NCBI GenBank assembly: GCA_964016885.1
Contig: CAXHJY010000353.1
Coordinates: forward strand, 1-64,000
Reading direction: 5' to 3'
Length of the DNA stretch: 64,000 nt
Origin: Eledone cirrhosa
Lineage: Eukaryota
The notes under the pieces are model-generated. The model had not been told where the DNA came from. It saw only the letters and a program-made list of their open reading frames with translations, and ran no database searches. Shown piece after piece: positions 4,476 to 57,042 of the stretch (position 1 is the first letter of the stretch; every line of letters starts with the position of its first letter). The position numbers and the translations under genes are program-made.

Positions 4476-4604
4476 TCTAACCTATATAGCTTATTAATTA
4501 CTGTTCAAAAATAATTTATTTAGACTCAAGAAATGTGAAGTTTAATTAGAATTTCTAAATTGTTTCCACAACGAGTTCTTTGGGCGTTGCTAGTCTTTCT
4601 GTGT

Positions 4605-8460: not shown

Positions 8461-8624
8461 AGTAGAAATATTAGATATACTGAAAGAGCTAGTTTATGTA
8501 GTACTATAAGCTAGCCCTAAAATATGGCGTCCCTGTCTTTACAAATATATTTCATTCAAGAGATTTGTAAGCTGACAAATATTATTTTGACGAGGCTAAC
8601 AATTTTATGACGATGGGTAAAATG

Positions 8625-11600: not shown

Positions 11601-11846
11601 GGTGGTATTGCAGTGTGGTGTTGGTGGTAGTGTAGTGTGGAGTTGGTGGTAGTGTAGTGTGGTGTTGGTGGTAGTGTAGTGTGGTGTTGGTGGTAATGTT
11701 GTGTGGTGTTGGTGGTACTGTAGTGTGGTGTTAGTGGTAGTGTGGTGTTGTTGGTAATGTAGTGTGGTGTTGCTGGTAGTGTAGTGTTGTGTTGGTGGTA
11801 GTGTAGTGGTGTTGGTGGTAGTGTAGTGCTGGTAGTGTAGTGTGGT
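8625..11846. repeat. 22-bp minisatellite (ggtggtagtgtagtgtggtgtt)n with higher-order blocks
   Basis: Direct periodicity. The variant marker ggtgttcctggtgg recurs at ~9345, ~10215 and ~10983. Confidence 0.95.
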
Positions 11847-12039
11847 TGAACTAGAAGATGCCAGCAGATTCTCTAGGATTAAAAGGCCACATTTAAGTAA
11901 TTAAAGTCATCAATTATTGAATTAAAAACAAATAATGTCGCTCCAGACTCTATGAAAACGCCAATTCCCTGACACTTAGAATGCTATAGTATTGCTGATG
12001 CCAAATATTCGGTACCCCCACCAGCAACCGCATCAACAT

Positions 12040-15000
12040 CACTAGCATCACCACCACCACCACCACAACCAGCCCTACCATCTCCACAACCACCACCTAC
12101 GCAAGCACCAACACCTCCAGCAATACAACCTCCACCACTATCACCACCAGCAGTACAACCTCCACCACTATCACCACCATCAGCACCAGCAGTACAACCA
12201 CCACCACCAACACCACCAGCAGTACAACCTCCACCACCAACACCACCAGCAGTACAACCTCCACCATCAACACCTCCAGCAAGACAACCTCCATCACCAA
12301 CACCCCCAGAAATATAACCTCCACCATCAACACCACCAGCAATACAACCTCCACCACCAACACCACCAGCAATACAACCACCACCACCAACACCACCAGA
12401 GGTACAACCTCCACCACAAACACCACCAGCAGTACAACCTCCACCACCAACACCACCAGCAGTAAGTACAACCTCCACCACCAACACCACCAGCAGTACA
12501 ACCTCCACCACCAACGCCACCAGCATTACGACCTCCGCCACCAACACCGCCAGCAGTACAACCTCCACCACCAACACCACCAGCAGTACAACCTCCACCA
12601 CCAACACCACCAGCAGTACAACCTCCACCACCAACACCACCAGCAGTACAACCTCCACCACCAACACCACCAGCCGTACAACCTCCACCACCAACACCTC
12701 CAGCAATACAACCTCCACCACCAACACCACCAGCAGTACAACCTCCACCACCAACACCACCAGCAGTACAACCTCCACCACCAACACCACCAGCCGTACA
12801 ACCTCCACCACCAACACCACCAGCAGTACAACCTCCACCACCAACACCACCAGCAATACAACCTCTACCAACACCACCAGCAGTACAACCACCACCAACA
12901 CCACCAGCCGTACAACCTACACCACCAACACCACCAGCCGTACAACCTCCACCACCAACACCACCAGCAGTACAACCTCCACCACCAACACCACCAGCAA
13001 TACAACCTCCACCAACACCACCAGCAGTACAACCACCACCAACACCACCAGCCGTACAACCTACACCACCAACACCACCAGCAGTACAACCACCACCACC
13101 AACACCACCAGCAGTACAGCCTCCACCACCAACACCACCAGCAGTACAACCTCCACCACCAACACCACCAGCAGTACAACCTCCACCAGCAGTATAACCT
13201 CCACCACCAACACCACCAGCAATACAACCTCCACCACCAACACCACCAGCAATACAACCTCCACCACCAACACCTCCAGCAATACAACCTCCACCACCAA
13301 CACCACCAGCCGTACAACCTCCACCACCAACACCACCAGCAATACAACCACCACCACCAACACCACCAGCAGTACAACCTCCACCACCAACACCTCCAGC
13401 AATACAACCTCCACCACCAACACCACCAGCAATACAACCTCCACCACCAACACCACCAGCAATACAACCTCCACCACCAACACCTCCAGCAATACAACCT
13501 CCACCACCAACACCACCAGCCGTACAACCTCCACCACCAACACCACCAGCAATACAACCACCACCACCAACACCACCAGCAGTACAACCACCACCAACAC
13601 CACCAGCAGTACAACCTCCACCACCAACACCACCAGCAGTACAACCTCCACCACCAACACCACCAGCAATACAACCTCCACCACCAACACCACCAGCAAT
13701 ACAACCTCCACCACCAACACCTCCAGCAATACAACCTCCACCACCAACACCACCAGCAATACAACCTCCACCACCAACACCTCCAGCAATACAACCTCCA
13801 CCACCAACACCACCAGCCGTACAACCTCCACCACCAACACCTCCAGCAATACAACCACCACCACCACCAACACCACCAGCAGTACAACCTCCACCACCAA
13901 CACCACCAGCAGTACAACCTCCACCACCAAAACCACCAGCAGTACAACCTCCACCACCAACACCACCAGCAGTACAACCTCCACCACCAACACCACCAGC
14001 AGTACAACCTCCACCACCAACACCACCAGCAGTACAACCTCCACCACCAACACCACCAGCAGTACAACCTACACCACCAACACCACCAGCAGTACAACCT
14101 CCACCACCAACGCCACCAGCAGTACAACCTACACCACCAACACCACCAGCAGTACAACCTCCACCACCAACACCACCAGCAGTACAACCTCCACCACCAA
14201 CACCACCAGCAGTACAACCACCACCACTAACACCACCAGCAGTACAACCTCCACCACCAACACCACCAGCAATACAACCTCCACCACCAACACCACCAGC
14301 AGTACAACCTCCACCACCAACACCACCAGCAGTACAACCTCCACCACCAACACCACCAGCAATACAACCTCCACCACCAACACCACCAGCTGTACAACCT
14401 CCACCACCAACACCACCAGCAATACAACCTCCACCACCAGCAATACAACCTCCACCACCAACACCACCAGCAGTACAACCACCACCACTAACACCACCAG
14501 CAGTACAACCTCCACCACCAACACCACCAGCAATACAACCTCCACCACCAACACCACCAGCAGTACAACCACCACCACTAACACCACCAGCAGTACAACC
14601 TCCACCACCAACACCACCAGCAGTACAACCTCCACCACCAACACCACCAGCAGTACAACCTCCACCACCAACACCACCAGCAATACAACCTCCACCACCA
14701 ACACCACCAGCTGTACAACCTCCACCACCAACACCACCAGCTGTACAACCTCCACCACCAACACCACCAGCAGTACAACCTCCACCACCAACACCACCAG
14801 CAGTACAACCTCCACCACCAACACCACCAGCAATACAACCTCCACCACCAACACCACCAGCAGTACAACCTCCACCACCAACGCCACCAGCAGTACAACC
14901 TCCACCACCAACACCACCAGCAGTACAACCTCCACCACCAACACCACCAGCAGTACAACCTCCACCACCAACACCACCAGCCGTACAACCTCCACCACCA

Positions 15001-18000
15001 ACACCACCAGCAGTACAACCTCCACCACCAACACCACCAGCAATACAACCTCCAACACCACCAGCAGTACAACCTCCACCACCAACACCACCAGCAATAC
15101 AACCTCCACCACCAACACCACCAGCAGTACAACCACCACCACTAACACCACCAGCAGTACAACCTCCACCACCAACACCACCAGCAGTACAACCTCCACC
15201 ACCAACACCACCAGCAGTACAACCTCCACCACCAACACCACCAGCTGTACAACCTCCACCACCAACACCACCAGCAGTACAACCTCCACCACTAACACCA
15301 CCAGCAGTACAACCTCCACCACCAACACCACCAGCAGTACAACCTACACCACCAACACCACCAGCAGTACAACCTCCACCACCAACACCACCAGCAATAC
15401 AACCTCCACCACCAACACCACCAGCAATACAACCTCCACCACCAACACCACCAGCAATACAACCTCCACCACCAACACCACCAGCAATACAACCTCCACC
15501 ACCAACACCACCAGCAATACAACCTCCACCACCAACACCACCAGCAGTACAACCTCCACCACCAACACCACCAGCAGTACAACCTCCACCACCAACACCA
15601 CCAGCAGTACAACCTCCACCACCAACACCACCAGCAATACAACCTCCACCACCAACACCACCAGCTGTACAACCTCCACCACCAACACCACCAGCTGTAC
15701 AACCTCCACCACCAACACCACCAGCAGTACAACCTCCACCACCAACACCACCAGCAGTACAACCTCCACCACCAACACCACCAGCAATACAACCTCCACC
15801 ACCAACACCACCAGCAGTACAACCTCCACCACCAACGCCACCAGCAGTACAACCTCCACCACCAACACCACCAGCAGTACAACCTCCACCACCAACACCA
15901 CCAGCAGTACAACCTCCACCACCAACACCACCAGCCGTACAACCTCCACCACCAACACCACCAGCAGTACAACCTCCACCACCAACACCACCAGCAATAC
16001 AACCTCCAACACCACCAGCAGTACAACCTCCACCACCAACACCACCAGCAATACAACCTCCACCACCAACACCACCAGCAGTACAACCTCCACCACCAAC
16101 ACCACCAGCAGTACAACCTCCACCACCAACACCACCAGCAGTACAACCTCCACCACCAACACCACCAGCAATACAACCTCCACCACCAACACCACCATCA
16201 GTACAACCACCACCACTAACACCACCAGCAGTACAACCTCCACCACCAACACCACCAGCAGTACAACCTCCACCACCAACACCACCAGCAGTACAACCTC
16301 CACCACCAACACCACCAGCTGTACAACCTCCACCACCAACACCACCAGCAGTACAACCTCCACCACTAACACCACCAGCAGTACAACCTCCACCACCAAC
16401 ACCACCAGCAGTACAACCTACACCACCAACACCACCAGCAGTACAACCTCCACCACCAACACCACCAGCAATACAACCTCCACCACCAACACCACCAGCA
16501 ATACAACCTCCACCACCAACACCACCAGCAATACAACCTCCACCACCAACACCACCAGCAATACAACCTCCACCACCAACACCACCAGCAATACAACCTC
16601 CACCACCAACACCACCAGCAGTACAACCTCCACCACCAACACCACCAGCAGTACAACCTCCACCACCAACACCACCAGCAGTACAACCTCCACCACCAAC
16701 ACCACCAGCAATACAACCTCCACCACCAACACCACCATCAGTACAACCACCACCACTAACACCACCAGCAGTACAACCTCCACCACCAACACCACCAGCA
16801 GTACAACCTCCACCACCAACACCACCAGCAGTACAACCTCCACCACCAACACCACCAGCTGTACAACCTCCACCACCAACACCACCAGCAGTACAACCTC
16901 CACCACTAACACCACCAGCAGTACAACCTCCACCACCAACACCACCAGCAGTACAACCTCCACCACCAACACCACCAGCAGTACAACCTACACCACCAAC
17001 ACCACCAGCAGTACAACCTCCACCACCAACACCACCAGCAATACAACCTCCACCACCAACACCACCAGCAATACAACCTCCACCACCAACACCAGCAGCA
17101 ATACAACCTCCACCACCAACACCACCAGCAATACAACCTCCACCACCAACACCACCAGCAATACAACCTCCACCACCAACACCACCAGCAGTACAACCTC
17201 CACCACCAACACCACCAGCAGTACAACCTCCACCACCAACACCACCAGCAGTACAACCTCCACCACCAACACCACCAGCAATACAACCTCCACCACCAAC
17301 ACCACCAGCTGTACAACCTCCACCACCAACACCACCAGCTGTACAACCTCCACCACCAACACCACCAGCAGTACAACCTCCACCACCAACACCACCAGCA
17401 GTACAACCTCCACCACCAATACCACCAGCAATACAACCTCCACCACCAACACCACCAGCAGTACAACCTCCACCACCAACGCCACCAGCAGTACAACCTC
17501 CACCACCAACACCACCAGCAGTACAACCTCCACCACCAACACCACCAGCAGTACAACCTCCACCACCAACACCACCAGCCGTACAACCTCCACCACCAAC
17601 ACCACCAGCAGTACAACCTCCACCACCAACACCACCAGCAATACAACCTCCAACACCACCAGCAGTACAACCTCCACCACCAACACCACCAGCAATACAA
17701 CCTCCACCACCAACACCACCAGCAGTACAACCTCCACCACCAACACCACCAGCAGTACAACCTCCACCACCAACACCACCAGCAGTACAACCTCCACCAC
17801 CAACACCACCAGCAATACAACCTCCACCACCAACACCACCATCAGTACAACCACCACCACTAACACCACCAGCAGTACAACCTCCACCACCAACACCACC
17901 AGCAGTACAACCTCCACCACCAACACCACCAGCAGTACAACCTCCACCACCAACACCACCAGCTGTACAACCTCCACCACCAACACCACCAGCAGTACAA

Positions 18001-20175
18001 CCTCCACCACTAACACCACCAGCAGTACAACCTCCACCACCAACACCACCAGCAGTACAACCTACACCACCAACACCACCAGCAGTACAACCTCCACCAC
18101 CAACACCACCAGCAATACAACCTCCACCACCAACACCACCAGCAATACAACCTCCACCACCAACACCACCAGCAATACAACCTCCACCACCAACACCACC
18201 AGCAATACAACCTCCACCACCAACACCACCAGCAATACAACCTCCACCACCAACACCACCAGCAGTACAACCTCCACCACCAACACCACCAGCAGTACAA
18301 CCTCCACCACCAACACCACCAGCAGTACAACCTCCACCACCAACACCACCAGCAATACAACCTCCACCACCAACACCACCAGCAGTACAACCTCCACCAC
18401 CAACACCACCAGCAGTACAACCTCCACCACCAACACCACCAGCAATACAACCTCCACCACCAACACCACCAGCAATACAACCACCACCACCAACACCACC
18501 AGCAATACAATCTCCACCACCAACACCACCAGCAATACAACCTCCACCACCAACACCACCAGCAGTACAACCTCCACCACCAACACCACCAGCCGTACAA
18601 CCTCCACCACCAACACCACCAGCAATACAACCACCACCACCAACACCACCAGCAATACAACCTCCACCACCAACACCACCAGCAGTACAACCTCCACCAC
18701 TAACACCACCAGCAATACAATCTCCACCACCAACACCACCAGCAATACAACCTCCACCACCAACACCACCAGCAATACAACCTCCACCACCAACACCACC
18801 AGCAATACAACCTCCACCACCAACACCACCAGCCGTACAACCTCCACCACCAGCAATACAACCACCACCACCAACACCACCAGCAATACAACCTCCACCA
18901 CCAACACCACCAGCAGTACAACCTCCACCACCAACACCACCAGCAGTACAACCTCCACCACCAACACCACCAGCAGTACAACCTCCACCACCAACACCAC
19001 CAGCAGTACAACCTCCACCACCAACACCACCAGCAGTACAACCTCCACCACCAACACCACCAGTAGTGCAACCTCCACCACCAACACCACCAGCAGTACA
19101 ACCTCCACCACCAACACCACCAGCAGTACAACCTCCACCACCAACACCACCAGCAGTACAACCTCCACCACCAACACCACCAGCAGTACAACCTCCACCA
19201 CCAACACCACCAGCAGTACAACCACCACCACCAACACCGTCAGCAATACAACCACCACCACCAACACCACCAGCAGTACAACCTCCACCACCAACACCAC
19301 CAGCAGTACAACCTCCACCACCAACACCGTCAGCAATACAACCACCACCACCAACACCACCAGCAGTACAAACTCCACCACCAACACCACCAGCCGTACA
19401 ACCTCCACCACCAACACCATCAGCAATACAACCACCACCACCACCAACACCACCAGCAGTACAACCTCCACCACCAACACCGTCAGCAATACAACCACCA
19501 CCACCAACACCACCAGCAGTACAAACTCCACCACCAACACCACCAGCAGTACAACCTCCACCACCAACACCGTCAGCAATACAACCACCACCACCAACAC
19601 CACCAGCAGTACAAACTCCACCACCAACACCACCAGCCGTACAACCTCCACCACCAACACCACCAGCAGTACAACCTCCACCACCAACACCGTCAGCAAT
19701 ACAACCACCACCACCAACACCACCAGCAGTACAAACTCCACCACCAACACCACCAGCCGTACAACCTCCACCACCAACACCATCAGCAATACAACCACCA
19801 CCACCACCAACACCACCAGCAGTACAACCTCCACCACCAACACCGTCAGCAATACAACCACCACCACCAACACCACCAGCAGTACAAACTCCACCACCAA
19901 CACCACCAGCCGTACAACCTCCACCACCAACACCATCAGCAATACAACCACCACCACCACCAACACCACCAGCAGTACAACCTCCACCACCAACACCACC
20001 AGCAGTACAACCTCCACCACCAACACCGTCAGCAATACAACCACCACCACCAACACCACCAGCAGTACAAACTCCACCACCAACACCACCAGCCGTACAA
20101 CCTCCACCACCAACACCATCAGCAATACAACCACCACCACCACCAACACCACCAGTAGTGCAACCTCCACCACAA
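12040..20175. repeat. 30-bp minisatellite (ccaccaccaacaccaccagcagtacaacct)n, ~270 units, with higher-order repeats
   Basis: Direct periodicity. The marker cctacacc recurs at ~15343, 16417, 16987 and 18061 (1074/570/1074 spacing). Confidence 0.97.
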
Positions 20176-20314
20176 CCACCACAACAACAACAAAAGTAAA
20201 AACATTGCCAGCAACATCAACAATAACAATACAACAGAAACAAAACAACAACAACAACAACAAGGCCAGCCCTAACAGTATCATTACCTTTAACAACAGT
20301 AAGAACGATTTCAG

Positions 20315-20540
20315 ATTTAGGGACAATGTCAACAATTTTGTCAGGGAAGAAAATGTCGATTTGGGACGTAGGCAAGTCTATTAAATCGACCCCCGTGCAT
20401 TACTGGTACTTCATTTGATCGACCCCGTATGGATGAAAGGCAAAGCTAATCTCAGTTGGATCTGAACTCAGAACGTAAAGGTTTGAAAATCTATACCCAC
20501 AAATATGTTGTCCATCGCTCTACCGATTATTGCCATTCCA
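20315..20540 (-). mobile_element. SINE family A, diverged
   Basis: Contains tactggtacttcatttgatcgaccccgtatggatgaaaggcaaag. Confidence 0.7.
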
Positions 20541-21778: not shown

Positions 21779-22312
21779 GAGGGTGGTCGAAAAAGATGTA
21801 TCTATTTTTGATAACGTAGCATTTTCTATTGAAAGGAAAACTTTACATTTTTTTTTCATAGACCTGTCTTACAGACATGTGAGTTTTGTGTGGTGTAAGT
21901 TTTTTCGTCGCATACCACCATTTTGCGAGCACAACTCAATAGTTTATAATGTGCTCGATCCAAACTCCTTGGCGCTGAATCACTGTGGCTACTCGAAGTT
22001 TGTAATGACCCTGTCCAACATGTCATGGGGAATTCTCCTGATCTCTGTTCGAATGTTATTCTTGAGCGCATCAATAGTTTGGGGATTGTTAGCATAGACC
22101 CTGTTTTTAGGTATCCCCACAGAAAATAATCTAAAGGGGATAGGTCTGGAGAATGTGCAGGCCAAGTGTGGTCCGTACGACGGGAGATGAGTCTGTCTTC
22201 AGGGAAGTATTCGAGTGAAGCATTGGAGCAATGCGGTGTTGCTCTATCCTGGGTTAATTTTATGAGAAATGATAGCGAAAATAAAATGGATACATCTTTT
22301 TGGACCACCCTG
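21779..22312 (-). mobile_element. Internally deleted Tc1/mariner-superfamily transposon
   Basis: TIRs gagggtggtcgaaaaagatgtatc / gatacatctttttggaccaccctg with TA TSD. Minus strand encodes QDRATPH...WPAHSPDLSPLDYFLWGYLK (catalytic C-terminus), then frameshifts. Confidence 0.9.
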
Positions 22313-22379
22313 TATTTGTCTCCGTCTTTTAGACATCAATTTGTGTGGAGTAAGGAAAACTAAATAAAACCGAAATAAC

Positions 22380-28190: not shown

Positions 28191-29083
28191 GAGGTGGGTC
28201 AGAAAAGTTCCAGGACTGATGTCACAAAAGATTTACTTCAAACCCAAACTTCACACTAAGAGATTTCTCCTTCAGAGTAATCCCCCTGGAGTATGTAACT
28301 ATAATCTTAGCTCTCTGCAGGGATCAAACCTTTTTCTTCATAATTTTATATACATGTGCTCTGTTTCAGGTCGTCAAGCAATGAGCACAGAACAACGAAC
28401 AAACTTGAAAACTCTGTCAGAAGCACTGAGATTGCTGCAGCAAGTGTATGGAGATGAGACGATGTCACGCTCACGTGCTTTTGAGTGGTGCAAGAGGTCT
28501 AAAGAAGGACGCGAGGAGTGGAAGATGACCCAGGAGCGGAACGCCCTCAACAACCAGGACTGAGGTCAACGTTAAGCGAGTTAGGCAGATGGTGCGTAGC
28601 GATCGTCGGCTGACTGTTCGACTGATGGCAAATGAGCTGGGCATGAATCGGGACAGCGTCTGGAAGATTCTCACGGAAGATTTGGACATGCGGAAAGTCT
28701 GCGCGAAGATGGTGCCAAAACTGCTGAACGATGACCAGAAGGGTCGACGCATACAAGTGTGCCAGGACATCCTCGAGCGTCTTGAAAACGAACCAGACTT
28801 GCTAGAGACAGTCATCACCGGTGATGAATCATGGATCTTCGAGTACGACCCGGAGGGGACCCGTTTTGAAGACGTGGACGACATCAAAAAGGCCGTGACG
28901 ACGGAACTGCAGAGGATCCCGGAAGAATCCTTCCAGGAGTGCATGCAAGAGTGGCAGAAAAGGATGGAAAAGTGCATTAGACTCCAGGGGGATTACTTTG
29001 AAGGAGAACACTCTTAGTGTGAAGTTTGGGTTTGAAATAAATCTTTTGTGACATCGGTCCTGGAACTTTTCTGACCCACCTCG
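28190..29083 (+). mobile_element. Internally deleted mariner element with ~103-bp TIRs
   Basis: TIRs 28190-28292 / 28981-29083, in a (TA)n target. Transposase remnants include VYGDETMSRSRAFEW, RLTVRLMANELG and ITGDESWIFEYDP, fused directly to the C-terminal GTRF...QGDYFEG, so the rest of the DDD domain is deleted. Confidence 0.92.
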
Positions 29084-43995: not shown

Positions 43996-45241
43996 AAAAA
44001 CATGGGAAGAAAGAGGAAAACTGCGTGGTTGCACATGGCTTACATATTATAAAATTAGTCCCTCATCAGTGATTTGCCAACCATCATTGGTATATATATA
44101 TATATTATGGGATTAGGAGAATGTAAGGATTACAGTTTATGATGTATGGCGCATGATGTAGAACACATAAAAGTGGTGAAACATATGAAACTTATTGCTT
44201 ATGATGTTGGGTAGCCACAGTTAGTGAAGTTTAGGGTTAAGCACAAAAAAAACAAGATGGTGTATAGGACAGAATAAAGGAGAGACACAATATAAAAACC
44301 TCGTCACAGAGGAGGTCACAATATGTATGATGGAAGAGTTTTGACAATACATAAACAACCTTCCGGTTATCGAACCAACAAACAGGTGAAACTCCAGAGT
44401 AACACGACTCAATTTTTAGCCTTAATATTATTGAGAGATTAATTTAGAGGTTGTGAATAGATTCCTTTGTTCACACTCTTGATTTTGCCCGCCAAAGCAC
44501 GGATGTAAATCTTTCTCGTTTCTTGAGAAAGAACACGTGACCGCGCCGCCAAAGTAACTGCTACAGTACATGACAGTGGAGTTACTAAGCCGGACTGGTG
44601 GAATATGGAACGCAACGCCTGTTAGAAAAGGATATCCTCATTCCGTATTAGGAGACATTACTGACTTGCATGTTATGCAACATGGAGTACAGATTTTGGA
44701 TTCCCAGAAACCAATCGGAGATATTTATGTAATATCTACCGATCAGGTCCAGGATCTTTTTTGGTCTCCATCTTGATTTTGTGAATGTTTTTTTCTATCT
44801 CAGATAAGCATGAAGACATACAGAGGCACACAAAAACCAAACTAACAAAACAATTCAGACACACACAAATAGAACAAACAACCAACTAGTGACAAGTAAA
44901 TAAACACACACACACACACACACACAGATGTAAAGAATGCACTAACTAAGCACAAAAAACAAGATGGTGTATAGGACAAAATAAAGGAGAGACACAAAAT
45001 AAAAACCTCGTCACAGAGGTCACAATATGTATGATGGAAGAGTTTTGACAATATATAAACAACCTTCCGGTTATCGGACCAACAAACCACCCAGCCGGAA
45101 ACGTATAATAAATTGAAGTGAAAATCAAGGGGTGCGTTTTTTTTTTTGTTTGGCAGCATGACACGCCCAAAGTATAACAATATGTTTCAACACACGTTTT
45201 CAGATAAGAAATTTCGCAAAACAAATTCAAAAATGAATTGC

Positions 45242-45274
<33 letters not shown>

Positions 45275-45293
45275 TATATATATACTCACACAC

Positions 45294-45326
<33 letters not shown>

Positions 45327-45557
45327 TACACACACATATATATATATACACACACATATATATATATATACACACACACATATATATATATATACACACA
45401 CATATATATATATATATATACACACACACATATATATATATATACATACACACACACATATATATATACACACACACACATATATATATATACACACACA
45501 CACACATATATATATATACACACACACATATATATATATACACACACACATATATAT

Positions 45558-45626
<69 letters not shown>

Positions 45627-45677
45627 AAATATTAAACAAATAATGAACAAACAATTCCTTATATTAAACAAAAAAAG

Positions 45678-45832
45678 TTCACTATTTAACGATCGTTTCT
45701 AGGGTATATATGTGTTATAATTGGTATGCATATTTAACAGATCTATGTACAAAATTATACAAAATTATACAAATTATCAAGATTAAATATACATACCTAA
45801 CTCATATATACGCCGTCTTCAGAAATAATGAA
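45678..45832 (-). ncRNA. Hammerhead ribozyme with extended stem II (mirror of 56374-56528)
   Basis: Mirror copy in the left palindrome arm. Confidence 0.75.
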
Positions 45833-46602
45833 GTATATTTATTGATAATAACAACAATTCAAAATATCAGTTCAAAATTGACCAATGAAAACACAAAGGG
45901 TTAAAAGCAGTTTGGTGTGTGTATATACATGTAAAAACCTTACACATATTTTACAATAATGTGTGTATAATTTGTATGTGCATACTAAAAAGATGGATGC
46001 AAACACAAAATTTCAAGGTTAATATCTCTGTAAGCTTAATGCGCTGATAAGATACGCAATGATACTTATGGAGTCAAGCATATAAATATATTTTTTTCAT
46101 ACTCACACATATCAGTATAATCACACATACATGTGCGTATATGCATAAATATACACATAACCACGAACATACAAACACACACACTCCCCCACTCACATTT
46201 ATATATGTGGATATAAAATCATAAGCAAATAGAAATTAAGTCACTCACATAAAAACACTGGTACACACATTTCAAGATCAAGATACAGAAATTAGGTGGG
46301 AGGGGGGGGGGGAGGGGTCAGTATTAGATTGTCAGACCAGACCGCCTAATATAAATGTATCTATAAATTAAGAAAAATAAAAAAATAAAAACAATAAAAT
46401 ATAATAAATATAATATAATGTACATACACATACAGATATACATACACATACATACATGTACGCGCACATAGAGATATTTACACATACATACATACACACA
46501 TACCTATACAGTCATACACACACATACATTTACACGAACATACACATACACATATAAAAAGATATAAATACACACACACTCACACGCAACACATACACAC
46601 AT

Positions 46603-46643
<41 letters not shown>

Positions 46644-47023
46644 TACACACACACATAGACTCATATATATATATATACACATACACATATATATACAAAC
46701 ATATATATCCACACACTCATACCACCATAAATACACATACAAACACCCACACGTATATATATATATATATATATATATATCCACATACACACACGTACAC
46801 ATATATATATATATACATATATACACATACATATATATATATACACACACATAAAAAACAGACATGCACATATATATATATATATATAAATATATTTCAT
46901 TACTCTTATATATACACATAGTATATATACATACACAACCTCACTTATACACATATACACATAAGTTATATTACAATAATAATAAAGAATAATATATATA
47001 TATATATATATATACATACACAT

Positions 47024-47056
<33 letters not shown>

Positions 47057-47151
47057 TATATACATACACATACATACATACACCTAAATATATACATACA
47101 TAAATACACACATACGAATAAAGACATATATTCACACATAGACACCTATAT

Positions 47152-47234
<83 letters not shown>

Positions 47235-48967
47235 CACACACACACACACACACAGACACACATACACACTCACATATATATATATATATATGTGTATGTG
47301 AGTGTGCGCAAATACACATATATATACACACACACATACAAACACACACAAACACATACATATGCATACGTGCACACACACACACATATATCACATAGAT
47401 ACGAAGATAAACATATAAATAGAGAGACATACAAATATATACAGAACCCATATACACATACATACAAACACGCATATATATATACATACATATATACACA
47501 TATATATATTCCTATATACAAGCATACACATACATACACATATATACATATACATACACATATACATACCACACATTCACATACACATACATATATAATA
47601 CATATATATACATATATATACATACATATGTATGTACAATCATATATACACACTCAATCTTACATTATATTTACATGCTCATATATGTATTTTTATATTT
47701 AGAAATAAATACCAAAACCTATATAGACACCCACCTACACATATATTCATACATATACGCTTACAAAAACAGATGATAATAGTATGGGGGAAAGGGGGGG
47801 TTTGGAGAAGGGGATCAAAGTAAATATATGTTTCAAGAAACATATAATATTTTCCGTATCTTAATTCAATGTATGTTCTTACATATTTTCAGTGCTAGGA
47901 AATACGAAATCTATGCATCTCAAAATAAAAAAGTATACCATTAATCATATGTTAACTAAACCAAAGATAGTCAACATATTGATTTCCAAGGTGTAAATTA
48001 GTTAGGTTTATAATATTTGAAGCAGAATTATGAAGTCAAACAGTAGTAGATTATTAATTACATTATAACTAAATTAAAGTTAATAACGTTATGGTATCAA
48101 TATTAGGAGATGAATTTAGTAATAGGGAAAAGAAACCCAAATAAAAATAAAATAAAGTATTACATCGGTAGTAGCATATAAATTATATGTTAACTAAATT
48201 AAAAATTATATATTTATTTCAATAGTATACGTTAATTAGTATATGTTAATTAGGTATACAATACATAAAGCAGATATTGTATTTCATCAATAGCATAATA
48301 TAATTATATGCAAATAAAAATCAAAATTAAAACGCATACATATACATATACATACACATACACATACATATACATATACACACATATATATATATATATA
48401 CATATATATACACATATATACATATATAGTCACATAAATATACATAGAGATACACATACAACACACACATATACATATACATATAGATATACATATCTTT
48501 TTCAAAAAATTGCACAGAATATATTAACTAGGTATATATCCAAAACACATCCCATTCTATGATTACATGACATTCTGCAATTCGTCTGTACAAGGATACT
48601 AATTTTAAGCAAATTAAAATTAAAGTTTTAGGTTGATTAAAACTAAAACCAAATAATAAATATATTTCCAAAATGTATATTAATTAGGTCTATAATACTA
48701 AAAATTCTTTCTCCGTCATAGGATACATGATATTATTTTGTTATATTTTATCTGTAAAAGAATTATAATAAAAAAAATTATAATAAAAGGTTAAAATAAA
48801 TTAAAATTAATCTATAAATTAAATTACTGAGTATATATTAGTAATATTTAAAGGTTTTTCAAAATTTATGATTACATAATATTTTCTCATCTGTAATAAA
48901 ATATTAATTAAATTAAATTTATAGGTTAACTAACATTTAAATTAAATTAAATTCTAGAATAATGTTA

Positions 48968-51106
48968 TTAATTAGGTTTATAATATTTAAATGTTTTTTT
49001 TAGTTTATGATTACACGATATAATTAATTCCTGTCTTTTATTTAATAAGATATCCCTAGACTTCATTATTTCAAATAGTTCTTGGGAACATAATCTACAT
49101 TCCTTTCTATTATTTTGATAAGGGGTGGCTCTTTTGAGCACACTCCAGGTCAAATCATATTTTATATTTTTATTTTTATAACTATTGATTTTTTCTGCTA
49201 GAGATGTTGTATTAGCCAGTGCGGCATTTTTAAAACTATGTTTGTGGGTATTATACCTTGTCTTAAAATTGTTAGAGGTAGCTCCTATATATGAGCAAAT
49301 AGAATCTTTAGTTTTAACATTACATTTATAGACTATGTTGTTAACAAGACAATTCCCTTTTAATGGGCAGTTTGTTTTGTTTCTACAGTTACATCCTTTC
49401 GTTAATTCTGTATTTGGGGAGATATTATTGTTAATTTGATGTACTGGTGGTATACTTATGGTTTTCTTACATTTATATGCATTATATGCACTTATATTTT
49501 GTTTTATGTTATTTGTTGTAGAGTATGAGAATTTAACTGTAGACCTATTTAAGATTTGATGGTATTTGTGGTTTGGCGGGAAGTTTTTCTCAAGGATATA
49601 AAAAAATTTTTTAGCAATATTATCCTTAACTTGTAAATTAAAAGGAGCATTATACCAAGTAACTCGTCTATTACGGTTTCTATGTTGTTTATTATTTTTA
49701 TTATTTTTATATGTTGTATCATGATTTTTACTAGGAGGATTAATGTTAATGATCTCACCACAACTATTTTTAGTTATATTTGTAGATTTAGGTGTTTTAT
49801 CTTTTTTATTAGGAGTTTTATTATTAATATTTATTATAGTTGTATGATGAGTAGTTTTTTGAGGGTTACTATACTTTATATTAGAAGATTTAGTATTTTG
49901 GGGTATACTGTGGGTGGCATTTAGGTGTGTACTTTTCATTTGGTGTTTGTTGGTAATATTATGCTGTATGCTTTCAGTATTTTTAGTAGAAGGTATATAC
50001 TCTAATCTATTTTTGTGGCCACTTCTATCTAGAGCTTCATTATAAAAGGTCGCATTTTTATCAAATACATCTTGGTTAGAAGAAAGGTTAGAAATTCTAA
50101 GTGATATATTATATGCAAGGTTTTTAAGGATAGATTTAGGGTGATTAGATTGTGAGTGTATGTAATGTAAGTTTTGGTTAGGTTTATGGTAAGGTTGGTA
50201 TATACCCGTAGCTAAATCTAAAGTTATATCTAGGAAATTTACTACTTTACTTGTTTTTTCAAAAGTAATATTAAGATTATAATAGTCTTTAAGGAAAGTT
50301 CTAATATGCTTTTTGTTTTTTTCGATTTCTGAAAGGCTAAGGTTGTTAGAAAGAAGAAGACAGTCATCACGATATAAACCACCTTTGAGGTGGGGAAAAG
50401 AGGCATTTATGTTGAAAAGGAGAAAGAGGCCCACAAGATCAGTAATTTGGGCGGAATCGCTTGAACCCATAGTAATATCAAAAAGATTACTGTATGTGTT
50501 TCTGGTCCAGTATTCATTCTGAAATTCAATAAGTGTTTGTCTAGCATGTGTAATAATGTTAATGTCATCCGAAGTTAAATTAGATCTATTTTTAGCAAAT
50601 ATTAATGCTTTGTTCAGGAGTATGGGTGATATAGAAGAATAGTAATTATCTATATCAAATTGTAGGAAAGAAGCAGAAGATTTACACCTAATATTTTTAA
50701 ACCAATTAATTACCTGGGAGGTGTTTTCCCAGAGTGGTAAAATAACGTATTTTCTTATTTGTGGGATGACTCTATCTAAAATTTTTTTGCTAATTATTCC
50801 AATATCTGATTTGGAGGGACATATAAGTCTAATAGAAGGATTAGAGTTAAAGTTAGATTTGTGATCTTTCAGGTTGAAGTGTGGTCTTTTCAATGCCAAA
50901 GGTTCAGTTCTATCTTCAATATTTAGTTTTTTTACTATGTTGTGTGTTTTGTTGTTGATGTTGGTGAGTGACACATTATTAGATTTTTTATAATTTTTTC
51001 TGAGTTCTTTATATATGAACTCATTATAATGTTCAATATCCATATGATACAAGTTACCAGTTTTGTCCGAGTGGACATGGATTTTTTTAGACTTTTTTAG
51101 GTCCAA
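48968..51106 (-). CDS. Penelope-like RT + GIY-YIG endonuclease, N-terminally truncated (probably Hydra clade)
   Basis: Motifs DKTGNLY, FLQFDIDNYY, MGSSDSA, GLYRDD, VNFLDITL, CNCRNKTNCP (CxCx5C), IVYKC..SYIGAT..FKTRY..H. Uninterrupted 712 codons; the called start is TTG. Confidence 0.92.
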   Translation of the reverse strand: MDLKKSKKIHVHSDKTGNLYHMDIEHYNEFIYKELRKNYKKSNNVSLTNINNKTHNIVKKLNIEDRTEPLALKRPHFNLKDHKSNFNSNPSIRLICPSKSDIGIISKKILDRVIPQIRKYVILPLWENTSQVINWFKNIRCKSSASFLQFDIDNYYSSISPILLNKALIFAKNRSNLTSDDINIITHARQTLIEFQNEYWTRNTYSNLFDITMGSSDSAQITDLVGLFLLFNINASFPHLKGGLYRDDCLLLSNNLSLSEIEKNKKHIRTFLKDYYNLNITFEKTSKVVNFLDITLDLATGIYQPYHKPNQNLHYIHSQSNHPKSILKNLAYNISLRISNLSSNQDVFDKNATFYNEALDRSGHKNRLEYIPSTKNTESIQHNITNKHQMKSTHLNATHSIPQNTKSSNIKYSNPQKTTHHTTIININNKTPNKKDKTPKSTNITKNSCGEIININPPSKNHDTTYKNNKNNKQHRNRNRRVTWYNAPFNLQVKDNIAKKFFYILEKNFPPNHKYHQILNRSTVKFSYSTTNNIKQNISAYNAYKCKKTISIPPVHQINNNISPNTELTKGCNCRNKTNCPLKGNCLVNNIVYKCNVKTKDSICSYIGATSNNFKTRYNTHKHSFKNAALANTTSLAEKINSYKNKNIKYDLTWSVLKRATPYQNNRKECRLCSQELFEIMKSRDILLNKRQELIISCNHKLKKTFKYYKPN

Positions 51107-51159
51107 TAGGGTAGAATCAATCTAAAAAAATCCATGTCCACTCGGACAAAACTGGTAAC

Positions 51160-53244
51160 TTGTATCATATGGATATTGAACATTATAATGAGTTCATATA
51201 TAAAGAACTCAGAAAAAATTATAAAAAATCTAATAATGTGTCACTCACCAACATCAACAACAAAACACACAACATAGTAAAAAAACTAAATATTGAAGAT
51301 AGAACTGAACCTTTGGCATTGAAAAGACCACACTTCAACCTGAAAGATCACAAATCTAACTTTAACTCTAATCCTTCTATTAGACTTATATGTCCCTCCA
51401 AATCAGATATTGGAATAATTAGCAAAAAAATTTTAGATAGAGTCATCCCACAAATAAGAAAATACGTTATTTTACCACTCTGGGAAAACACCTCCCAGGT
51501 AATTAATTGGTTTAAAAATATTAGGTGTAAATCTTCTGCTTCTTTCCTACAATTTGATATAGATAATTACTATTCTTCTATATCACCCATACTCCTGAAC
51601 AAAGCATTAATATTTGCTAAAAATAGATCTAATTTAACTTCGGATGACATTAACATTATTACACATGCTAGACAAACACTTATTGAATTTCAGAATGAAT
51701 ACTGGACCAGAAACACATACAGTAATCTTTTTGATATTACTATGGGTTCAAGCGATTCCGCCCAAATTACTGATCTTGTGGGCCTCTTTCTCCTTTTCAA
51801 CATAAATGCCTCTTTTCCCCACCTCAAAGGTGGTTTATATCGTGATGACTGTCTTCTTCTTTCTAACAACCTTAGCCTTTCAGAAATCGAAAAAAACAAA
51901 AAGCATATTAGAACTTTCCTTAAAGACTATTATAATCTTAATATTACTTTTGAAAAAACAAGTAAAGTAGTAAATTTCCTAGATATAACTTTAGATTTAG
52001 CTACGGGTATATACCAACCTTACCATAAACCTAACCAAAACTTACATTACATACACTCACAATCTAATCACCCTAAATCTATCCTTAAAAACCTTGCATA
52101 TAATATATCACTTAGAATTTCTAACCTTTCTTCTAACCAAGATGTATTTGATAAAAATGCGACCTTTTATAATGAAGCTCTAGATAGAAGTGGCCACAAA
52201 AATAGATTAGAGTATATACCTTCTACTAAAAATACTGAAAGCATACAGCATAATATTACCAACAAACACCAAATGAAAAGTACACACCTAAATGCCACCC
52301 ACAGTATACCCCAAAATACTAAATCTTCTAATATAAAGTATAGTAACCCTCAAAAAACTACTCATCATACAACTATAATAAATATTAATAATAAAACTCC
52401 TAATAAAAAAGATAAAACACCTAAATCTACAAATATAACTAAAAATAGTTGTGGTGAGATCATTAACATTAATCCTCCTAGTAAAAATCATGATACAACA
52501 TATAAAAATAATAAAAATAATAAACAACATAGAAACCGTAATAGACGAGTTACTTGGTATAATGCTCCTTTTAATTTACAAGTTAAGGATAATATTGCTA
52601 AAAAATTTTTTTATATCCTTGAGAAAAACTTCCCGCCAAACCACAAATACCATCAAATCTTAAATAGGTCTACAGTTAAATTCTCATACTCTACAACAAA
52701 TAACATAAAACAAAATATAAGTGCATATAATGCATATAAATGTAAGAAAACCATAAGTATACCACCAGTACATCAAATTAACAATAATATCTCCTCAAAT
52801 ACAGAATTAACGAAAGGATGTAACTGTAGAAACAAAACAAACTGCCCATTAAAAGGGAATTGTCTTGTTAACAACATAGTCTATAAATGTAATGTTAAAA
52901 CTAAAGATTCTATTTGCTCATATATAGGAGCTACCTCTAACAATTTTAAGACAAGGTATAATACCCACAAACATAGTTTTAAAAATGCCGCACTGGCTAA
53001 TACAACATCTCTAGCAGAAAAAATCAATAGTTATAAAAATAAAAATATAAAATATGATTTGACCTGGAGTGTGCTCAAAAGAGCCACCCCTTATCAAAAT
53101 AATAGAAAGGAATGTAGATTATGTTCCCAAGAACTATTTGAAATAATGAAGTCTAGGGATATCTTATTAAATAAAAGACAGGAATTAATTATATCGTGTA
53201 ATCATAAATTAAAAAAAACATTTAAATATTATAAACCTAATTAA
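51160..53244 (+). CDS. Penelope-like RT + GIY-YIG endonuclease, N-terminally truncated
   Basis: Same protein as the minus-strand ORF except NNISSN vs NNISPN. The frame is open from 51121 and the first ATG is at 51169. Confidence 0.92.
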   Translation: MYHMDIEHYNEFIYKELRKNYKKSNNVSLTNINNKTHNIVKKLNIEDRTEPLALKRPHFNLKDHKSNFNSNPSIRLICPSKSDIGIISKKILDRVIPQIRKYVILPLWENTSQVINWFKNIRCKSSASFLQFDIDNYYSSISPILLNKALIFAKNRSNLTSDDINIITHARQTLIEFQNEYWTRNTYSNLFDITMGSSDSAQITDLVGLFLLFNINASFPHLKGGLYRDDCLLLSNNLSLSEIEKNKKHIRTFLKDYYNLNITFEKTSKVVNFLDITLDLATGIYQPYHKPNQNLHYIHSQSNHPKSILKNLAYNISLRISNLSSNQDVFDKNATFYNEALDRSGHKNRLEYIPSTKNTESIQHNITNKHQMKSTHLNATHSIPQNTKSSNIKYSNPQKTTHHTTIININNKTPNKKDKTPKSTNITKNSCGEIININPPSKNHDTTYKNNKNNKQHRNRNRRVTWYNAPFNLQVKDNIAKKFFYILEKNFPPNHKYHQILNRSTVKFSYSTTNNIKQNISAYNAYKCKKTISIPPVHQINNNISSNTELTKGCNCRNKTNCPLKGNCLVNNIVYKCNVKTKDSICSYIGATSNNFKTRYNTHKHSFKNAALANTTSLAEKINSYKNKNIKYDLTWSVLKRATPYQNNRKECRLCSQELFEIMKSRDILLNKRQELIISCNHKLKKTFKYYKPN

Positions 53245-54977
53245 TAACATTATTCTAGAATTTAATTTAATTTAAATGTTAGTTAACCTATAAATTTAAT
53301 TTAATTAATATTTTATTACAGATGAGAAAATATTATGTAATCATAAATTTTGAAAAACCTTTAAATATTACTAATATATACTCAGTAATTTAATTTATAG
53401 ATTAATTTTAATTTATTTTAACCTTTTATTATAATTTTTTTTATTATAATTCTTTTACAGATAAAATATAACAAAATAATATCATGTATCCTATGACGGA
53501 GAAAGAATTTTTAGTATTATAGACCTAATTAATATACATTTTGGAAATATATTTATTATTTGGTTTTAGTTTTAATCAACCTAAAACTTTAATTTTAATT
53601 TGCTTAAAATTAGTATCCTTGTACAGACGAATTGCAGAATGTCATGTAATCATAGAATGGGATGTGTTTTGGATATATACCTAGTTAATATATTCTGTGC
53701 AATTTTTTGAAAAAGATATGTATATCTATATGTATATGTATATGTGTGTGTTGTATGTGTATCTCTATGTATATTTATGTGACTATATATGTATATATGT
53801 GTATATATATGTATATATATATATATATGTGTGTATATGTATATGTATGTGTATGTGTATGTATATGTATATGTATGCGTTTTAATTTTGATTTTTATTT
53901 GCATATAATTATATTATGCTATTGATGAAATACAATATCTGCTTTATGTATTGTATACCTAATTAACATATACTAATTAACGTATACTATTGAAATAAAT
54001 ATATAATTTTTAATTTAGTTAACATATAATTTATATGCTACTACCGATGTAATACTTTATTTTATTTTTATTTGGGTTTCTTTTCCCTATTACTAAATTC
54101 ATCTCCTAATATTGATACCATAACGTTATTAACTTTAATTTAGTTATAATGTAATTAATAATCTACTACTGTTTGACTTCATAATTCTGCTTCAAATATT
54201 ATAAACCTAACTAATTTACACCTTGGAAATCAATATGTTGACTATCTTTGGTTTAGTTAACATATGATTAATGGTATACTTTTTTATTTTGAGATGCATA
54301 GATTTCGTATTTCCTAGCACTGAAAATATGTAAGAACATACATTGAATTAAGATACGGAAAATATTATATGTTTCTTGAAACATATATTTACTTTGATCC
54401 CCTTCTCCAAACCCCCCCTTTCCCCCATACTATTATCATCTGTTTTTGTAAGCGTATATGTATGAATATATGTGTAGGTGGGTGTCTATATAGGTTTTGG
54501 TATTTATTTCTAAATATAAAAATACATATATGAGCATGTAAATATAATGTAAGATTGAGTGTGTATATATGATTGTACATACATATGTATGTATATATAT
54601 GTATATATATGTATTATATATGTATGTGTATGTGAATGTGTGGTATGTATATGTGTATGTATATGTATATATGTGTATGTATGTGTATGCTTGTATATAG
54701 GAATATATATATGTGTATATATGTATGTATATATATATGCGTGTTTGTATGTATGTGTATATGGGTTCTGTATATATTTGTATGTCTCTCTATTTATATG
54801 TTTATCTTCGTATCTATGTGATATATGTGTGTGTGTGTGCACGTATGCATATGTATGTGTTTGTGTGTGTTTGTATGTGTGTGTGTATATATATGTGTAT
54901 TTGCGCACACTCACATACACATATATATATATATATATGTGAGTGTGTATGTGTGTCTGTGTGTGTGTGTGTGTGTG

Positions 54978-55054
<77 letters not shown>

Positions 55055-55149
55055 ATATAGGTGTCTATGTGTGAATATATGTCTTTATTCGTATGTGTGT
55101 ATTTATGTATGTATATATTTAGGTGTATGTATGTATGTGTATGTATGTA

Positions 55150-55182
<33 letters not shown>

Positions 55183-55562
55183 ATGTGTATGTATATATAT
55201 ATATATATATATATTATTCTTTATTATTATTGTAATATAACTTATGTGTATATGTGTATAAGTGAGGTTGTGTATGTATATATACTATGTGTATATATAA
55301 GAGTAATGAAATATATTTATATATATATATATATATGTGCATGTCTGTTTTTTATGTGTGTGTATATATATATATGTATGTGTATATATGTATATATATA
55401 TATATGTGTACGTGTGTGTATGTGGATATATATATATATATATATATATATACGTGTGGGTGTTTGTATGTGTATTTATGGTGGTATGAGTGTGTGGATA
55501 TATATGTTTGTATATATATGTGTATGTGTATATATATATATATGAGTCTATGTGTGTGTGTA

Positions 55563-55601
<39 letters not shown>

Positions 55602-56373
55602 ATGTGTGTATGTGTTGCGTGTGAGTGTGTGTGTATTTATATCTTTTTATATGTGTATGTGTATGTTCGTGTAAATGTATGTGTGTGTATGACTGTATAG
55701 GTATGTGTGTATGTATGTATGTGTAAATATCTCTATGTGCGCGTACATGTATGTATGTGTATGTATATCTGTATGTGTATGTACATTATATTATATTTAT
55801 TATATTTTATTGTTTTTATTTTTTTATTTTTCTTAATTTATAGATACATTTATATTAGGCGGTCTGGTCTGACAATCTAATACTGACCCCTCCCCCCCCC
55901 CCCCTCCCACCTAATTTCTGTATCTTGATCTTGAAATGTGTGTACCAGTGTTTTTATGTGAGTGACTTAATTTCTATTTGCTTATGATTTTATATCCACA
56001 TATATAAATGTGAGTGGGGGAGTGTGTGTGTTTGTATGTTCGTGGTTATGTGTATATTTATGCATATACGCACATGTATGTGTGATTATACTGATATGTG
56101 TGAGTATGAAAAAAATATATTTATATGCTTGACTCCATAAGTATCATTGCGTATCTTATCAGCGCATTAAGCTTACAGAGATATTAACCTTGAAATTTTT
56201 TGTTTGCATCCATCTTTTTAGTATGCACATACAAATTATACACACATTATTGTAAAATATGTGTAAGGTTTTTACATGTATATACACACACCAAACTGCT
56301 TTTAACCCTTTGTGTTTTCATTGGTCAATTTTGAACTGATATTTTGAATTGTTGTTATTATCAATAAATATAC

Positions 56374-56528
56374 TTCATTATTTCTGAAGACGGCGTATAT
56401 ATGAGTTAGGTATGTATATTTAATCTTGATAATTTGTATAATTTTGTATAATTTTGTACATAGATCTGTTAAATATGCATACCAATTATAACACATATAT
56501 ACCCTAGAAACGATCGTTAAATAGTGAA
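56374..56528 (+). ncRNA. Type I hammerhead ribozyme with ~116-nt stem II
   Basis: ttcattattt-CTGAAGA-[gtatatatgagtta/taacacatatatac and ggtatgtatatttaa/ttaaatatgcatacc helices]-GAAA-cgatcg-TT-aaatagtgaa. Confidence 0.78.
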
Positions 56529-56711
56529 CTTTTTTTGTTTAATATAAGGAATTGTTTGTTCATTATTTGTTTAATATTTTATCTTGACTCTGTATACCGT
56601 TTATCTTTCACCGAAAGTGGATTTTCATTACATCTCTTCTTTCCATGATATCCGGAATACATTGAGTTCTTCATACGGATTGGACACTACCGTAAACTCT
56701 TGGTAGATTTA

Positions 56712-56759
<48 letters not shown>

Positions 56760-56779
56760 CACATATATATATATACACA

Positions 56780-56813
<34 letters not shown>

Positions 56814-57042
56814 CATATATATATATACATATATATATATATACATATATATATATACACACACACACACATGCACATATATATACACACACACAGACAC
56901 ATATATATACATACACACATATATATACACTCACATATACATATACACACATATATATATACATAGATACACACACATATATATATATATATATACATAC
57001 ACACATAATATAAGATCAAAAGATGGTTAAATGAGTTCCAAG

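What the first reader, a model, noticed from the sequence alone, without database searches (positions are those of the whole stretch)
45624..56712. 11-kb palindrome made of two head-to-head intact Penelope-like RT-EN copies
Seen: arms 45624-51091 and 51121-56582 are reverse complements separated by a 29-bp spacer, which is in-frame coding sequence of the left copy. Both ORFs are uninterrupted. The arms differ by only a few substitutions (P/S codon, CTA/TTA, cacaaa/caaaaa) and ~6 bp of microsatellite length. Both ends abut TA/CA microsatellite, and only the right arm has a ~130-nt tail. Established: PLEs often insert as tandem or inverted partial copies with a tail on only one copy. Inference: the two 5' truncation points lie within 29 nt of each other, which argues for a coupled fold-back copying event rather than two independent insertions. 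The insertion looks young. A read-through transcript would form ~5.4 kb of dsRNA, a potential ADAR/siRNA substrate.
Basis: partly seen in the sequence, partly recalled or inferred. Interest (0 to 1): 0.85.

Follow-up and report, generated by a model that had tools for sequence, protein, structure and literature searches.

The report
Head-to-head truncated Penelope retrotransposon insertion
This 11-kb mirror-image stretch is two front-truncated copies of a very abundant Penelope-type jumping gene joined head to head, a known and here very common layout, and it likely arose when both cut ends of the chromosome copied the same RNA, rather than by one copy folding back on itself.

Summary
The palindrome is in the assembly as described (arms 45624-51091 and 51121-56582, 29-bp spacer, 4 substitutions, one-sided 133-nt tail). 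Neither copy is intact: they lack the first 96 and 106 of 813 codons, including the ATG. The element has Hydra-clade Penelope motifs, a 6,054-bp unit and at least 4,126 tailed ends genome-wide. The layout is routine: 83 of 100 sampled tail-less ends join an inverted arm, 10 of 78 with over 3 kb mirrored. A single coupled event is supported: the arms share a private allele, arms within a locus are closer than any other copy in 10 of 10 other long overlaps, and symmetric junctions exceed a permutation null. Simple fold-back fits poorly: the spacer belongs to the tail-less arm, the join has no microhomology, and 45 of 83 junctions have a geometry fold-back cannot give. Likely mechanism (inferred): both target strands prime on one RNA at two sites about 134 nt apart, and the cDNAs are joined. 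Reads were unavailable, so an assembly error is unlikely but not excluded; dsRNA and editing are untested. Inverted copies and tails are published; this scan reached the same twin-priming reading earlier on other DNA of this genome.

The parts
45241..45623 (.). (TA)n/(CA)n microsatellite, left part of the target site
45624..51120 (-). Left, tail-less arm: element unit positions 579-6054 (unit numbering from natural copy L031), 5'-truncated
45678..45832 (-). Predicted type I hammerhead ribozyme of the left arm (mirror of 56374-56528)
   Evidence: activity untested
48968..51120 (-). Left RT + GIY-YIG ORF remnant, codons 97-813, no ATG, no stop or frameshift
51092..51120 (-). 29-bp unpaired centre = unit 579-607 in the orientation of the left arm; blunt join to the right arm, no microhomology, no inserted bases
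51121..56582 (+). Right arm, mirrored part: unit 608-6054, 5'-truncated
51121..53244 (+). Right RT + GIY-YIG ORF remnant, codons 107-813 (DKT, YRDD, CxCx5C, IVY...YIG, CxxC, CxH)
53245..56373 (+). 3.1-kb AT-rich 3' region with internal microsatellites; part of the element, present in other genomic copies
56374..56528 (+). Predicted type I hammerhead: stem I 56374-56383 with 56519-56528, CUGAAGA core at 56384, long stem II, GAAA at 56507, predicted cut after 56518. Base 56377 (unit 5849, in TCATT) is the family's 5'-end hotspot and a likely transcription start
   Evidence: (fold z -5.97, 0 of 200 shuffles as stable); motif read by eye, Rfam scan of 51100-57000 listed no hammerhead family
56583..56715 (+). 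One-sided tail, 133 nt (unit 6055-6187), element sequence between the two recurrent 3' ends
56716..57006 (.). (TA)n/(CA)n microsatellite, right part of the target site

Best explanation
It is one head-to-head insertion of two 5'-truncated copies of a Hydra-type Penelope-like element in a TA microsatellite, likely made when both strands of the cut target primed cDNA synthesis on the same element RNA and the two cDNAs were joined at their far ends. Shown in sequence: element identity, truncation, two fixed 3' ends (unit 6054 and about 6188), one of each per inverted insertion, shared haplotype of the arms, blunt join. Inferred steps: (1) the GIY-YIG endonuclease cuts both strands of (TA)n; (2) one end primes at the tail site and the other about 134 nt upstream; (3) both cDNAs run towards the 5' end of the same RNA, here broken near unit 579, which needs the downstream-primed RT to displace or follow the other cDNA; (4) the tailed cDNA stops or is trimmed 29 nt short; (5) the two 3' ends are joined by end-to-end template jump or host end joining and each cDNA templates the other's second strand. 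Neither arm is expected to make a functional mRNA from its own promoter.
For: Family survey of the first 100 of 499 exact tail-less ends (loci L040-L139): 83 of 100 show an inverted junction. In 73 of 83 the opposite arm's tailed end was seen, in 0 of 83 a second exact tail-less end, in 10 neither. Window arms share allele G at unit 5337 (0 of 53 other copies) and T at 2464 (1 of 62), and differ at 3 of 3,672 unmasked sites against a mean of 34.3 and a minimum of 7.7 to 21 other arms. In 10 of 10 other inverted loci with over 1,200 shared sites the arms are closer than any other copy, whether symmetric or not. 15 of 78 have non-overlapping arms, the tailed arm stopping at unit 6045-6180, at or before the second priming site: the twin-priming pattern. 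22 of 83 have both arms ending at unit 5844-5862 around a TCATT initiator-like site. Outside that hotspot 6 of 53 junctions are symmetric within 3 nt (permutation mean 0.32, 0 of 20,000 shuffles); with both arms long, 3 of 31 (mean 0.20, p 0.0009; within 30 nt mean 0.65, p 0.026). In vitro, an anole Penelope-type protein cuts and extends both target strands and starts RT at two internal RNA sites that bound the tail (PMC11167929).
Against: No reads were available, so the locus rests on one assembly. Shared haplotype is also expected from fold-back copying, from two RNAs of one source locus, from gene conversion between arms and from assembly polishing. The arms differ at 4 sites, more than most other long inverted loci (0-2 in 8 of 10), and one difference (unit 5672 T) is a common family allele (12 of 63), which could mean a second template or later conversion. 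13 of 83 junctions have the tailed arm longer and 25 are equal within 3 nt, both compatible with fold-back. Some symmetric junctions sit at recurrent positions (about 5770 in L055 and L153; about 1207-1217 in L044, L102, L146), so they are not fully independent. A cap-derived extra G at unit 5849 was not clearly seen. Junction positions were read by hand; the sample covers only contigs C1 and C2 and one end-sequence variant. Strand displacement by this RT is untested.
Confidence: 0.62

Rival explanations
1. Fold-back: one cDNA snapped back and copied itself (first reader; related to the self-priming idea of Arkhipova et al. 2013), and the spacer was perhaps inverted later by a crossover between the arms.
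For: Arms nearly identical with shared private alleles; 25 of 83 family junctions symmetric within 3 nt and 13 with the tailed arm longer; PMC3846280 Discussion reads junction palindromes as self-priming.
Against: Spacer lies in the tail-less arm and the join lacks microhomology. 45 of 83 junctions have the tail-less arm longer and 15 of 78 have non-overlapping arms. Several perfect palindromes have no loop at all and overlap by a 2-nt self-complementary dinucleotide (L042, L043, L055, L080, L081), as expected if two cDNA ends anneal.
Confidence: 0.13
2. Both target ends primed in one event but on two RNA molecules (or two units of a tandem transcript) from the same source locus; the 29-nt match of end points is chance.
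For: Most long-armed junctions are asymmetric (28 of 31 differ by over 30 nt) yet share haplotype; tandem arrays of near-identical units exist; chance of a match within 30 nt is about 2% per locus (0.65 of 31) and this window was picked for being symmetric.
Against: Excess of exactly symmetric junctions away from the hotspot, and tailed arms stalling at the second priming site, point to one RNA.
Confidence: 0.14
3. Assembly artefact (fold-back chimeric reads or a mis-join of two loci through the repeat).
For: The window begins a small contig (C380); no reads could be examined; no second copy of either flank or empty allele was found in the assembly (only 40 candidates scored each).
Against: The mirror ends exactly at the element's recurrent tail-less end, flanks differ, the tail is one-sided as in 73 of 83 family junctions, and the arms differ at 4 substitutions and 3 indels. 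A chimeric read would mirror flank and tail too. A mis-join of two loci would not give arms sharing a private allele.
Confidence: 0.06
4. Two independent insertions later homogenised by gene conversion.
For: Inverted repeats can convert each other (general knowledge); one arm difference is a common family allele.
Against: Needs a second insertion precisely at the truncated 5' end of the first, inside coding sequence rather than in (TA)n; cannot explain one tailed plus one tail-less end in 73 of 83 loci.
Confidence: 0.04

Closest known systems
Hydra clade of C-terminal-EN Penelope-like elements (Craig et al. 2021, PMC8557442; read: abstract, sections 11 and 12, passages, part 2 of 59 of the supplement)
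   Same: Single RT + C-terminal GIY-YIG ORF; RWR for RWK; DKT; CxCx5C linker; CxxC and CxH near the end; no conserved CCHH; hammerhead in the terminal repeat with CUGAAGA core and GUU site as in several listed Hydra families; (TA)n target. Penelope-13_HM is listed with a 966-nt 5'-truncated inverted copy.
   Different: Unit 6,054 bp against generally under 3 kb, owing to a 3.1-kb microsatellite-rich 3' region; tail about 134 nt against the 30-40 bp described for PLEs; hammerhead stem II about 115 nt; about 90 extra Asn/Thr/Lys-rich residues after the RT compared with most homologues.
Inverted 5'-truncated copy plus one-sided tail of endonuclease-bearing PLEs (PMC8557442 Fig. 2 legend; PMC3846280, read: abstract, passages, Discussion)
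   Same: Head-to-head arrangement, palindromic junction, tail on one side, Inr-like motif in the terminal repeat.
   Different: Here both arms cover about 90% of the unit; the junction survey favours two target-primed cDNAs on a sense RNA over self-priming on an antisense template.
Anole Poseidon in vitro reaction (Frangieh et al. 2024, PMC11167929; read: parts 1-2 of 4, all of the main text)
   Same: Both target strands cut and extended; two internal RT start sites bound the tail; AT-rich target; uncleaved RNA is the template.
   Different: Other clade; the paper saw no difference in start site between strands and leaves joining and second-strand steps unvalidated; in the parts read it does not address head-to-head products.
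L1 twin priming (recalled, not from a call)
   Same: Both target ends prime on one RNA, giving an inverted junction; matches the 15 of 78 non-overlapping cases.
   Different: L1 arms do not overlap; here the arms often duplicate kilobases and the second start site is fixed.

Membership tests
Endonuclease-bearing Penelope-like element | One ORF with RT and GIY-YIG endonuclease | tested here: met
   813-aa ORF; YRDD and IVY...YIG conserved across 9 homologues aligned. Pfam found no family for the truncated ORF; 118 homologues were unnamed but for one misleading fusion, so identity rests on motifs.
Endonuclease-bearing Penelope-like element | Tandem or partial-tandem copies, inverted 5'-truncated copy, one-sided tail | tested here: met
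Hydra clade | C-terminal EN; RWK motif; DKT motif | tested here: met
   RVRWRAY (RWR; RWK/RWR in homologues) in the full copy, SDKTG. RWR is missing from both window arms because of truncation.
Hydra clade | CxCx5C linker, no CCHH, CxxC and CxH near the C terminus | tested here: met
   CNCRNKTNC, CRLC, CNH; no conserved cysteine pair inside the GIY-YIG core
Hydra clade | Canonical hammerhead in the terminal repeat | tested here: met
   Stems I-III and both cores found by eye and by folding; stem II unusually long; Rfam did not list it; cleavage not tested
Hydra clade | (TA)n insertion preference | tested here: met
   4,126 tailed and 499 exact tail-less ends followed by TA, control 0; the patterns required TA, so ends in other targets were not counted
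Hydra clade | Generally short (under 3 kb) | tested here: not met
   Unit 6,054 bp; a stated tendency, not a strict criterion
Hydra clade | Placement in the RT phylogeny with named Hydra families | not tested
Naiad/Chlamys | N-terminal EN, DKA motif | tested here: not met
   EN is C-terminal, motif is DKT
Intact autonomous copy | ATG, full ORF and upstream terminal repeat | tested here: not met
   Arms start at codons 97 and 107

The most novel reading that the evidence does not exclude
Penelope-like elements routinely copy one RNA molecule twice in one integration: a dimer primes both target strands at two fixed RNA sites, and the downstream RT either stalls at the other cDNA or displaces it and runs to the same RNA 5' end, so that perfect multi-kilobase palindromes are a normal product of transposition. 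This locus would be a near-full-length case, and the thousands of junctions in this genome a ready test set for the unresolved joining step.
Probability: 0.5. Interest if true: 0.55.

Novelty: new member of a known kind. Interest (0 to 1): 0.3.

Why it matters
The locus itself is one long example of a published Penelope insertion layout and cannot transpose on its own. Its value is as a data point: how head-to-head Penelope insertions form is still open (self-priming was proposed in PMC3846280; PMC11167929 leaves the joining steps unvalidated), and the junctions of this young, high-copy family favour two target-primed cDNAs on one RNA. If so, the family keeps seeding near-perfect palindromes of up to 10-14 kb, possible sources of cruciforms, rearrangements and dsRNA. 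Three full-text searches found no paper whose title or abstract start proposes twin priming for Penelope elements; the library lacks most subscription papers, so this does not show it is unpublished.

Tried and rejected
Whole-window self-BLAST timed out on microsatellites; replaced by direct arm alignment. Pfam gave no family for the ORF remnant. Rfam gave only microsatellite-driven microRNA-type matches below gathering score and no hammerhead. Sequencing runs could not be obtained, so depth, spanning reads, small RNAs and editing stay open. Searches with both flanks found only old repeats and no haplotig or empty allele (40 candidates scored each, so not proof of absence). Cap-G test at unit 5849: of 48 sites listed, 10 had G at -1, but most are explained by the opposite arm or are not true 5849 ends; about 4 remain (L048, L079, L152, L158): inconclusive. 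A 5'-end hotspot at the predicted ribozyme cut (unit 5991) was looked for; only scattered ends lie near it (L050, L084, L126, L138), far fewer than at 5849. Naiad membership rejected (domain order). 17 of 100 tail-less loci showed no inverted junction within 9.8 kb (simple 5' ends, gaps, diverged derivatives or arms running out of the stretch) and were left out of the junction counts; 12 complex or tandem loci, and loci with under 120 shared sites, were left out of the haplotype table; 5 tandem loci were left out of the overlap counts. No structure prediction or tree was run.
Full report
Observation. Aligning the reverse complement of the left side to the right side shows arms at 45624-51091 and 51121-56582 with a 29-bp centre, four substitutions and three small indels in microsatellite or poly-C tracts, net 6 bp. 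The mirror ends exactly at 45624/56582; beyond it lie TA/CA microsatellites and unrelated flanks. Both frames are open to the same stop. The centre is coding sequence in the orientation of the left copy. A 133-nt extension follows the right arm only.

What the element is. The window is C380:1-64000 of a 3.0-Gb assembly; the ORF DNA had 3,492 candidates, of which 40 were scored, all near 100% identical. A tandem array on C2 gives a natural full unit of 6,054 bp with an 813-aa ORF. Against it the left arm covers unit 579-6054 and the right arm 608 to the tail end, so they start in codon 97 and at codon 107: both lack the ATG, the RWR motif and the upstream repeat, and are not intact. Pfam found nothing for the remnant, but 118 homologues were found and alignment with 9 of them shows RWR/RWK, DK[T/S], YRDD, CxCx5C, a C-terminal IVY...YIG, CxxC and CxH, and no CCHH. 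These are the features given for the Hydra clade in PMC8557442 section 11. A type I hammerhead with a long stem II lies at unit 5846-6000; Rfam did not list it. The clade call rests on motifs; no tree was built. The unit is twice the usual Hydra length and the tail about four times the 30-40 bp described for PLEs.

How common the layout is. Exact patterns count 499 tail-less and 4,126 tailed ends followed by TA, controls 0. I fetched 9.9 kb inward from the first 100 listed tail-less ends (C1 and C2), mapped them and read the junctions by hand: 83 of 100 have an inverted partner. Its tailed end was seen in 73 of 83, a second exact tail-less end in none, neither in 10. Of the first 46 listed tailed ends I fetched 40, skipping 6 that were partners of loci already sampled; by eye 21 of 40 have a clear inverted partner and 3 more are uncertain. 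Mirrored overlaps of at least 3 kb occur in 10 of 78 (5 tandem loci left out); the window's 5.4 kb is the longest of that sample, but inverted structures of about 14 kb with ORF in both arms exist, for example on C8. Inverted 5'-truncated copies and one-sided tails are described as typical of PLEs (PMC8557442; PMC3846280).

One event. Both arms carry G at unit 5337 (0 of 53 other copies) and T at 2464 (1 of 62). They differ at 3 of 3,672 unmasked sites; the mean to 21 other arms is 34.3 and the minimum 7.7. The same holds in 10 of 10 other inverted loci with over 1,200 shared sites, symmetric or not (0-11 differences, always below the nearest other copy). So the insertion is recent relative to the family, though not the youngest, and both arms come from one template or one source. 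Against: one arm difference (unit 5672) is a common family allele (12 of 63), and conversion or polishing would also make arms alike.

Mechanism. The tail-less arm is longer in 45 of 83 junctions, equal within 3 nt in 25, shorter in 13. A cDNA begun at the tailed end and folded back cannot give a longer tail-less arm, and one begun at the tail-less end cannot add the tail. The window belongs to the 45, and its join is blunt with no microhomology. In 15 of 78 the arms do not overlap: the tailed arm stops at unit 6045-6180, at or before the second priming site. In 22 of 83 both arms end at unit 5844-5862, mostly 5849, in a TCATT initiator-like motif (Inr-like motifs in PLE repeats are noted in PMC3846280); three simple insertions also start at 5848-5850 (L160, L167, L177). 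I read this as the RNA 5' end; a cap-derived G was not clearly shown. Away from the hotspot, 6 of 53 junctions are symmetric within 3 nt (null mean 0.32; 0 of 20,000 permutations), and 3 of 31 with both arms long (null 0.20, p 0.0009; within 30 nt null 0.65, p 0.026), including a palindrome of about 9.9 kb (L044, 1217/1217). Several perfect palindromes overlap by a self-complementary dinucleotide. All of this fits both target strands priming on one RNA at two fixed sites, the downstream RT stalling at or displacing the other cDNA, and the two 3' ends being joined. The anole Poseidon protein cuts and extends both strands and starts at two internal sites that bound the tail (PMC11167929). The displacement and joining steps are inferred. 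For this locus the 29-nt match could be chance at about 2% (0.65 of 31), with selection of the window on top, and a crossover between the arms could have flipped the centre.

Artefact. Reads could not be examined. The one-sided tail, element-exact mirror boundary, unmirrored flanks and arm differences argue against a fold-back chimera. No empty allele or haplotig was found (lower-bound searches).

dsRNA. A transcript crossing the locus would pair over about 5.4 kb, which follows from the sequence. The element's likely start sites (45829 on minus, 56377 on plus) face outward, so an outside promoter is needed; I did not identify a host gene here and have no RNA data.

Novelty. The layout is known; the family appears to be a new, long member with Hydra-type motifs. 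Searches for Penelope with template switch, twin priming, or head-to-head plus both strands gave 1, 2 and 0 papers, none on this mechanism by title and abstract start; the bioRxiv retrozyme paper was seen only as passages and did not bear on it, and its supplements were not available. My reading was logged before consulting earlier notes; one search then showed that the scan had reached the same twin-priming reading on short palindromes elsewhere in this genome. Those are unchecked AI notes, not independent support. What this locus adds is the long-arm case and the haplotype test on kilobase overlaps. Verdict: real in the assembly, known kind, interest 0.3.

Noticed in passing
family unit 798-845 and 1137-1276 (loci L046, L060, L113, L124, L127, L135; L044, L073, L102, L109, L137, L139): 5' ends of long arms cluster at about unit 798-817 (5 of 166 ends) and 1197-1217 (4 of 166), suggesting recurrent RNA break or RT stop sites inside the ORF; 5770-5772 recurs in L055 and L153.
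   Followed up: partly
G000:C2:170420759-170448000 (L031-L033, L113, L139): Tandem array of at least three full 6,054-bp units with an intact 813-aa ORF in the unit translated, with inverted arms at its ends.
   Followed up: partly
L071, L072, L104, L150, L163, L175, L185: Internally deleted or diverged derivatives that keep the 3' region and ends but little ORF; possibly a non-autonomous subfamily.
   Followed up: no
window 44810-45240: Older repeat (about 80% identity to dozens of loci) abutting the left microsatellite; some copies elsewhere lie as inverted pairs (C12, C4, C20); may be the end of another Penelope-like family.
   Followed up: no
window 12318-20384 (+): Minisatellite giving a 2,688-aa Thr/Ser/Asn-rich open frame (mucin-like by composition); other frames are also open, so coding status is unclear. 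A second tandem repeat lies at about 8550-11900.
   Followed up: no
window 28529-29017 (+) and 21856-22335 (-): Degraded frames that look like mariner/Tc1 transposase remnants (recalled resemblance; Pfam only weak HTH matches for the first, none for the second).
   Followed up: partly
ORF residues about 475-570 of the full copy: Asn/Thr/Lys/His-rich stretch absent from most homologues, reminiscent of the N-rich inserts in rotifer Penelope ORFs (PMC3846280).
   Followed up: no
L047, L075, L079, L082 junctions: Short locally templated repeats inserted at several inverted junctions, suggesting repeated slippage or end-joining synthesis.
   Followed up: no
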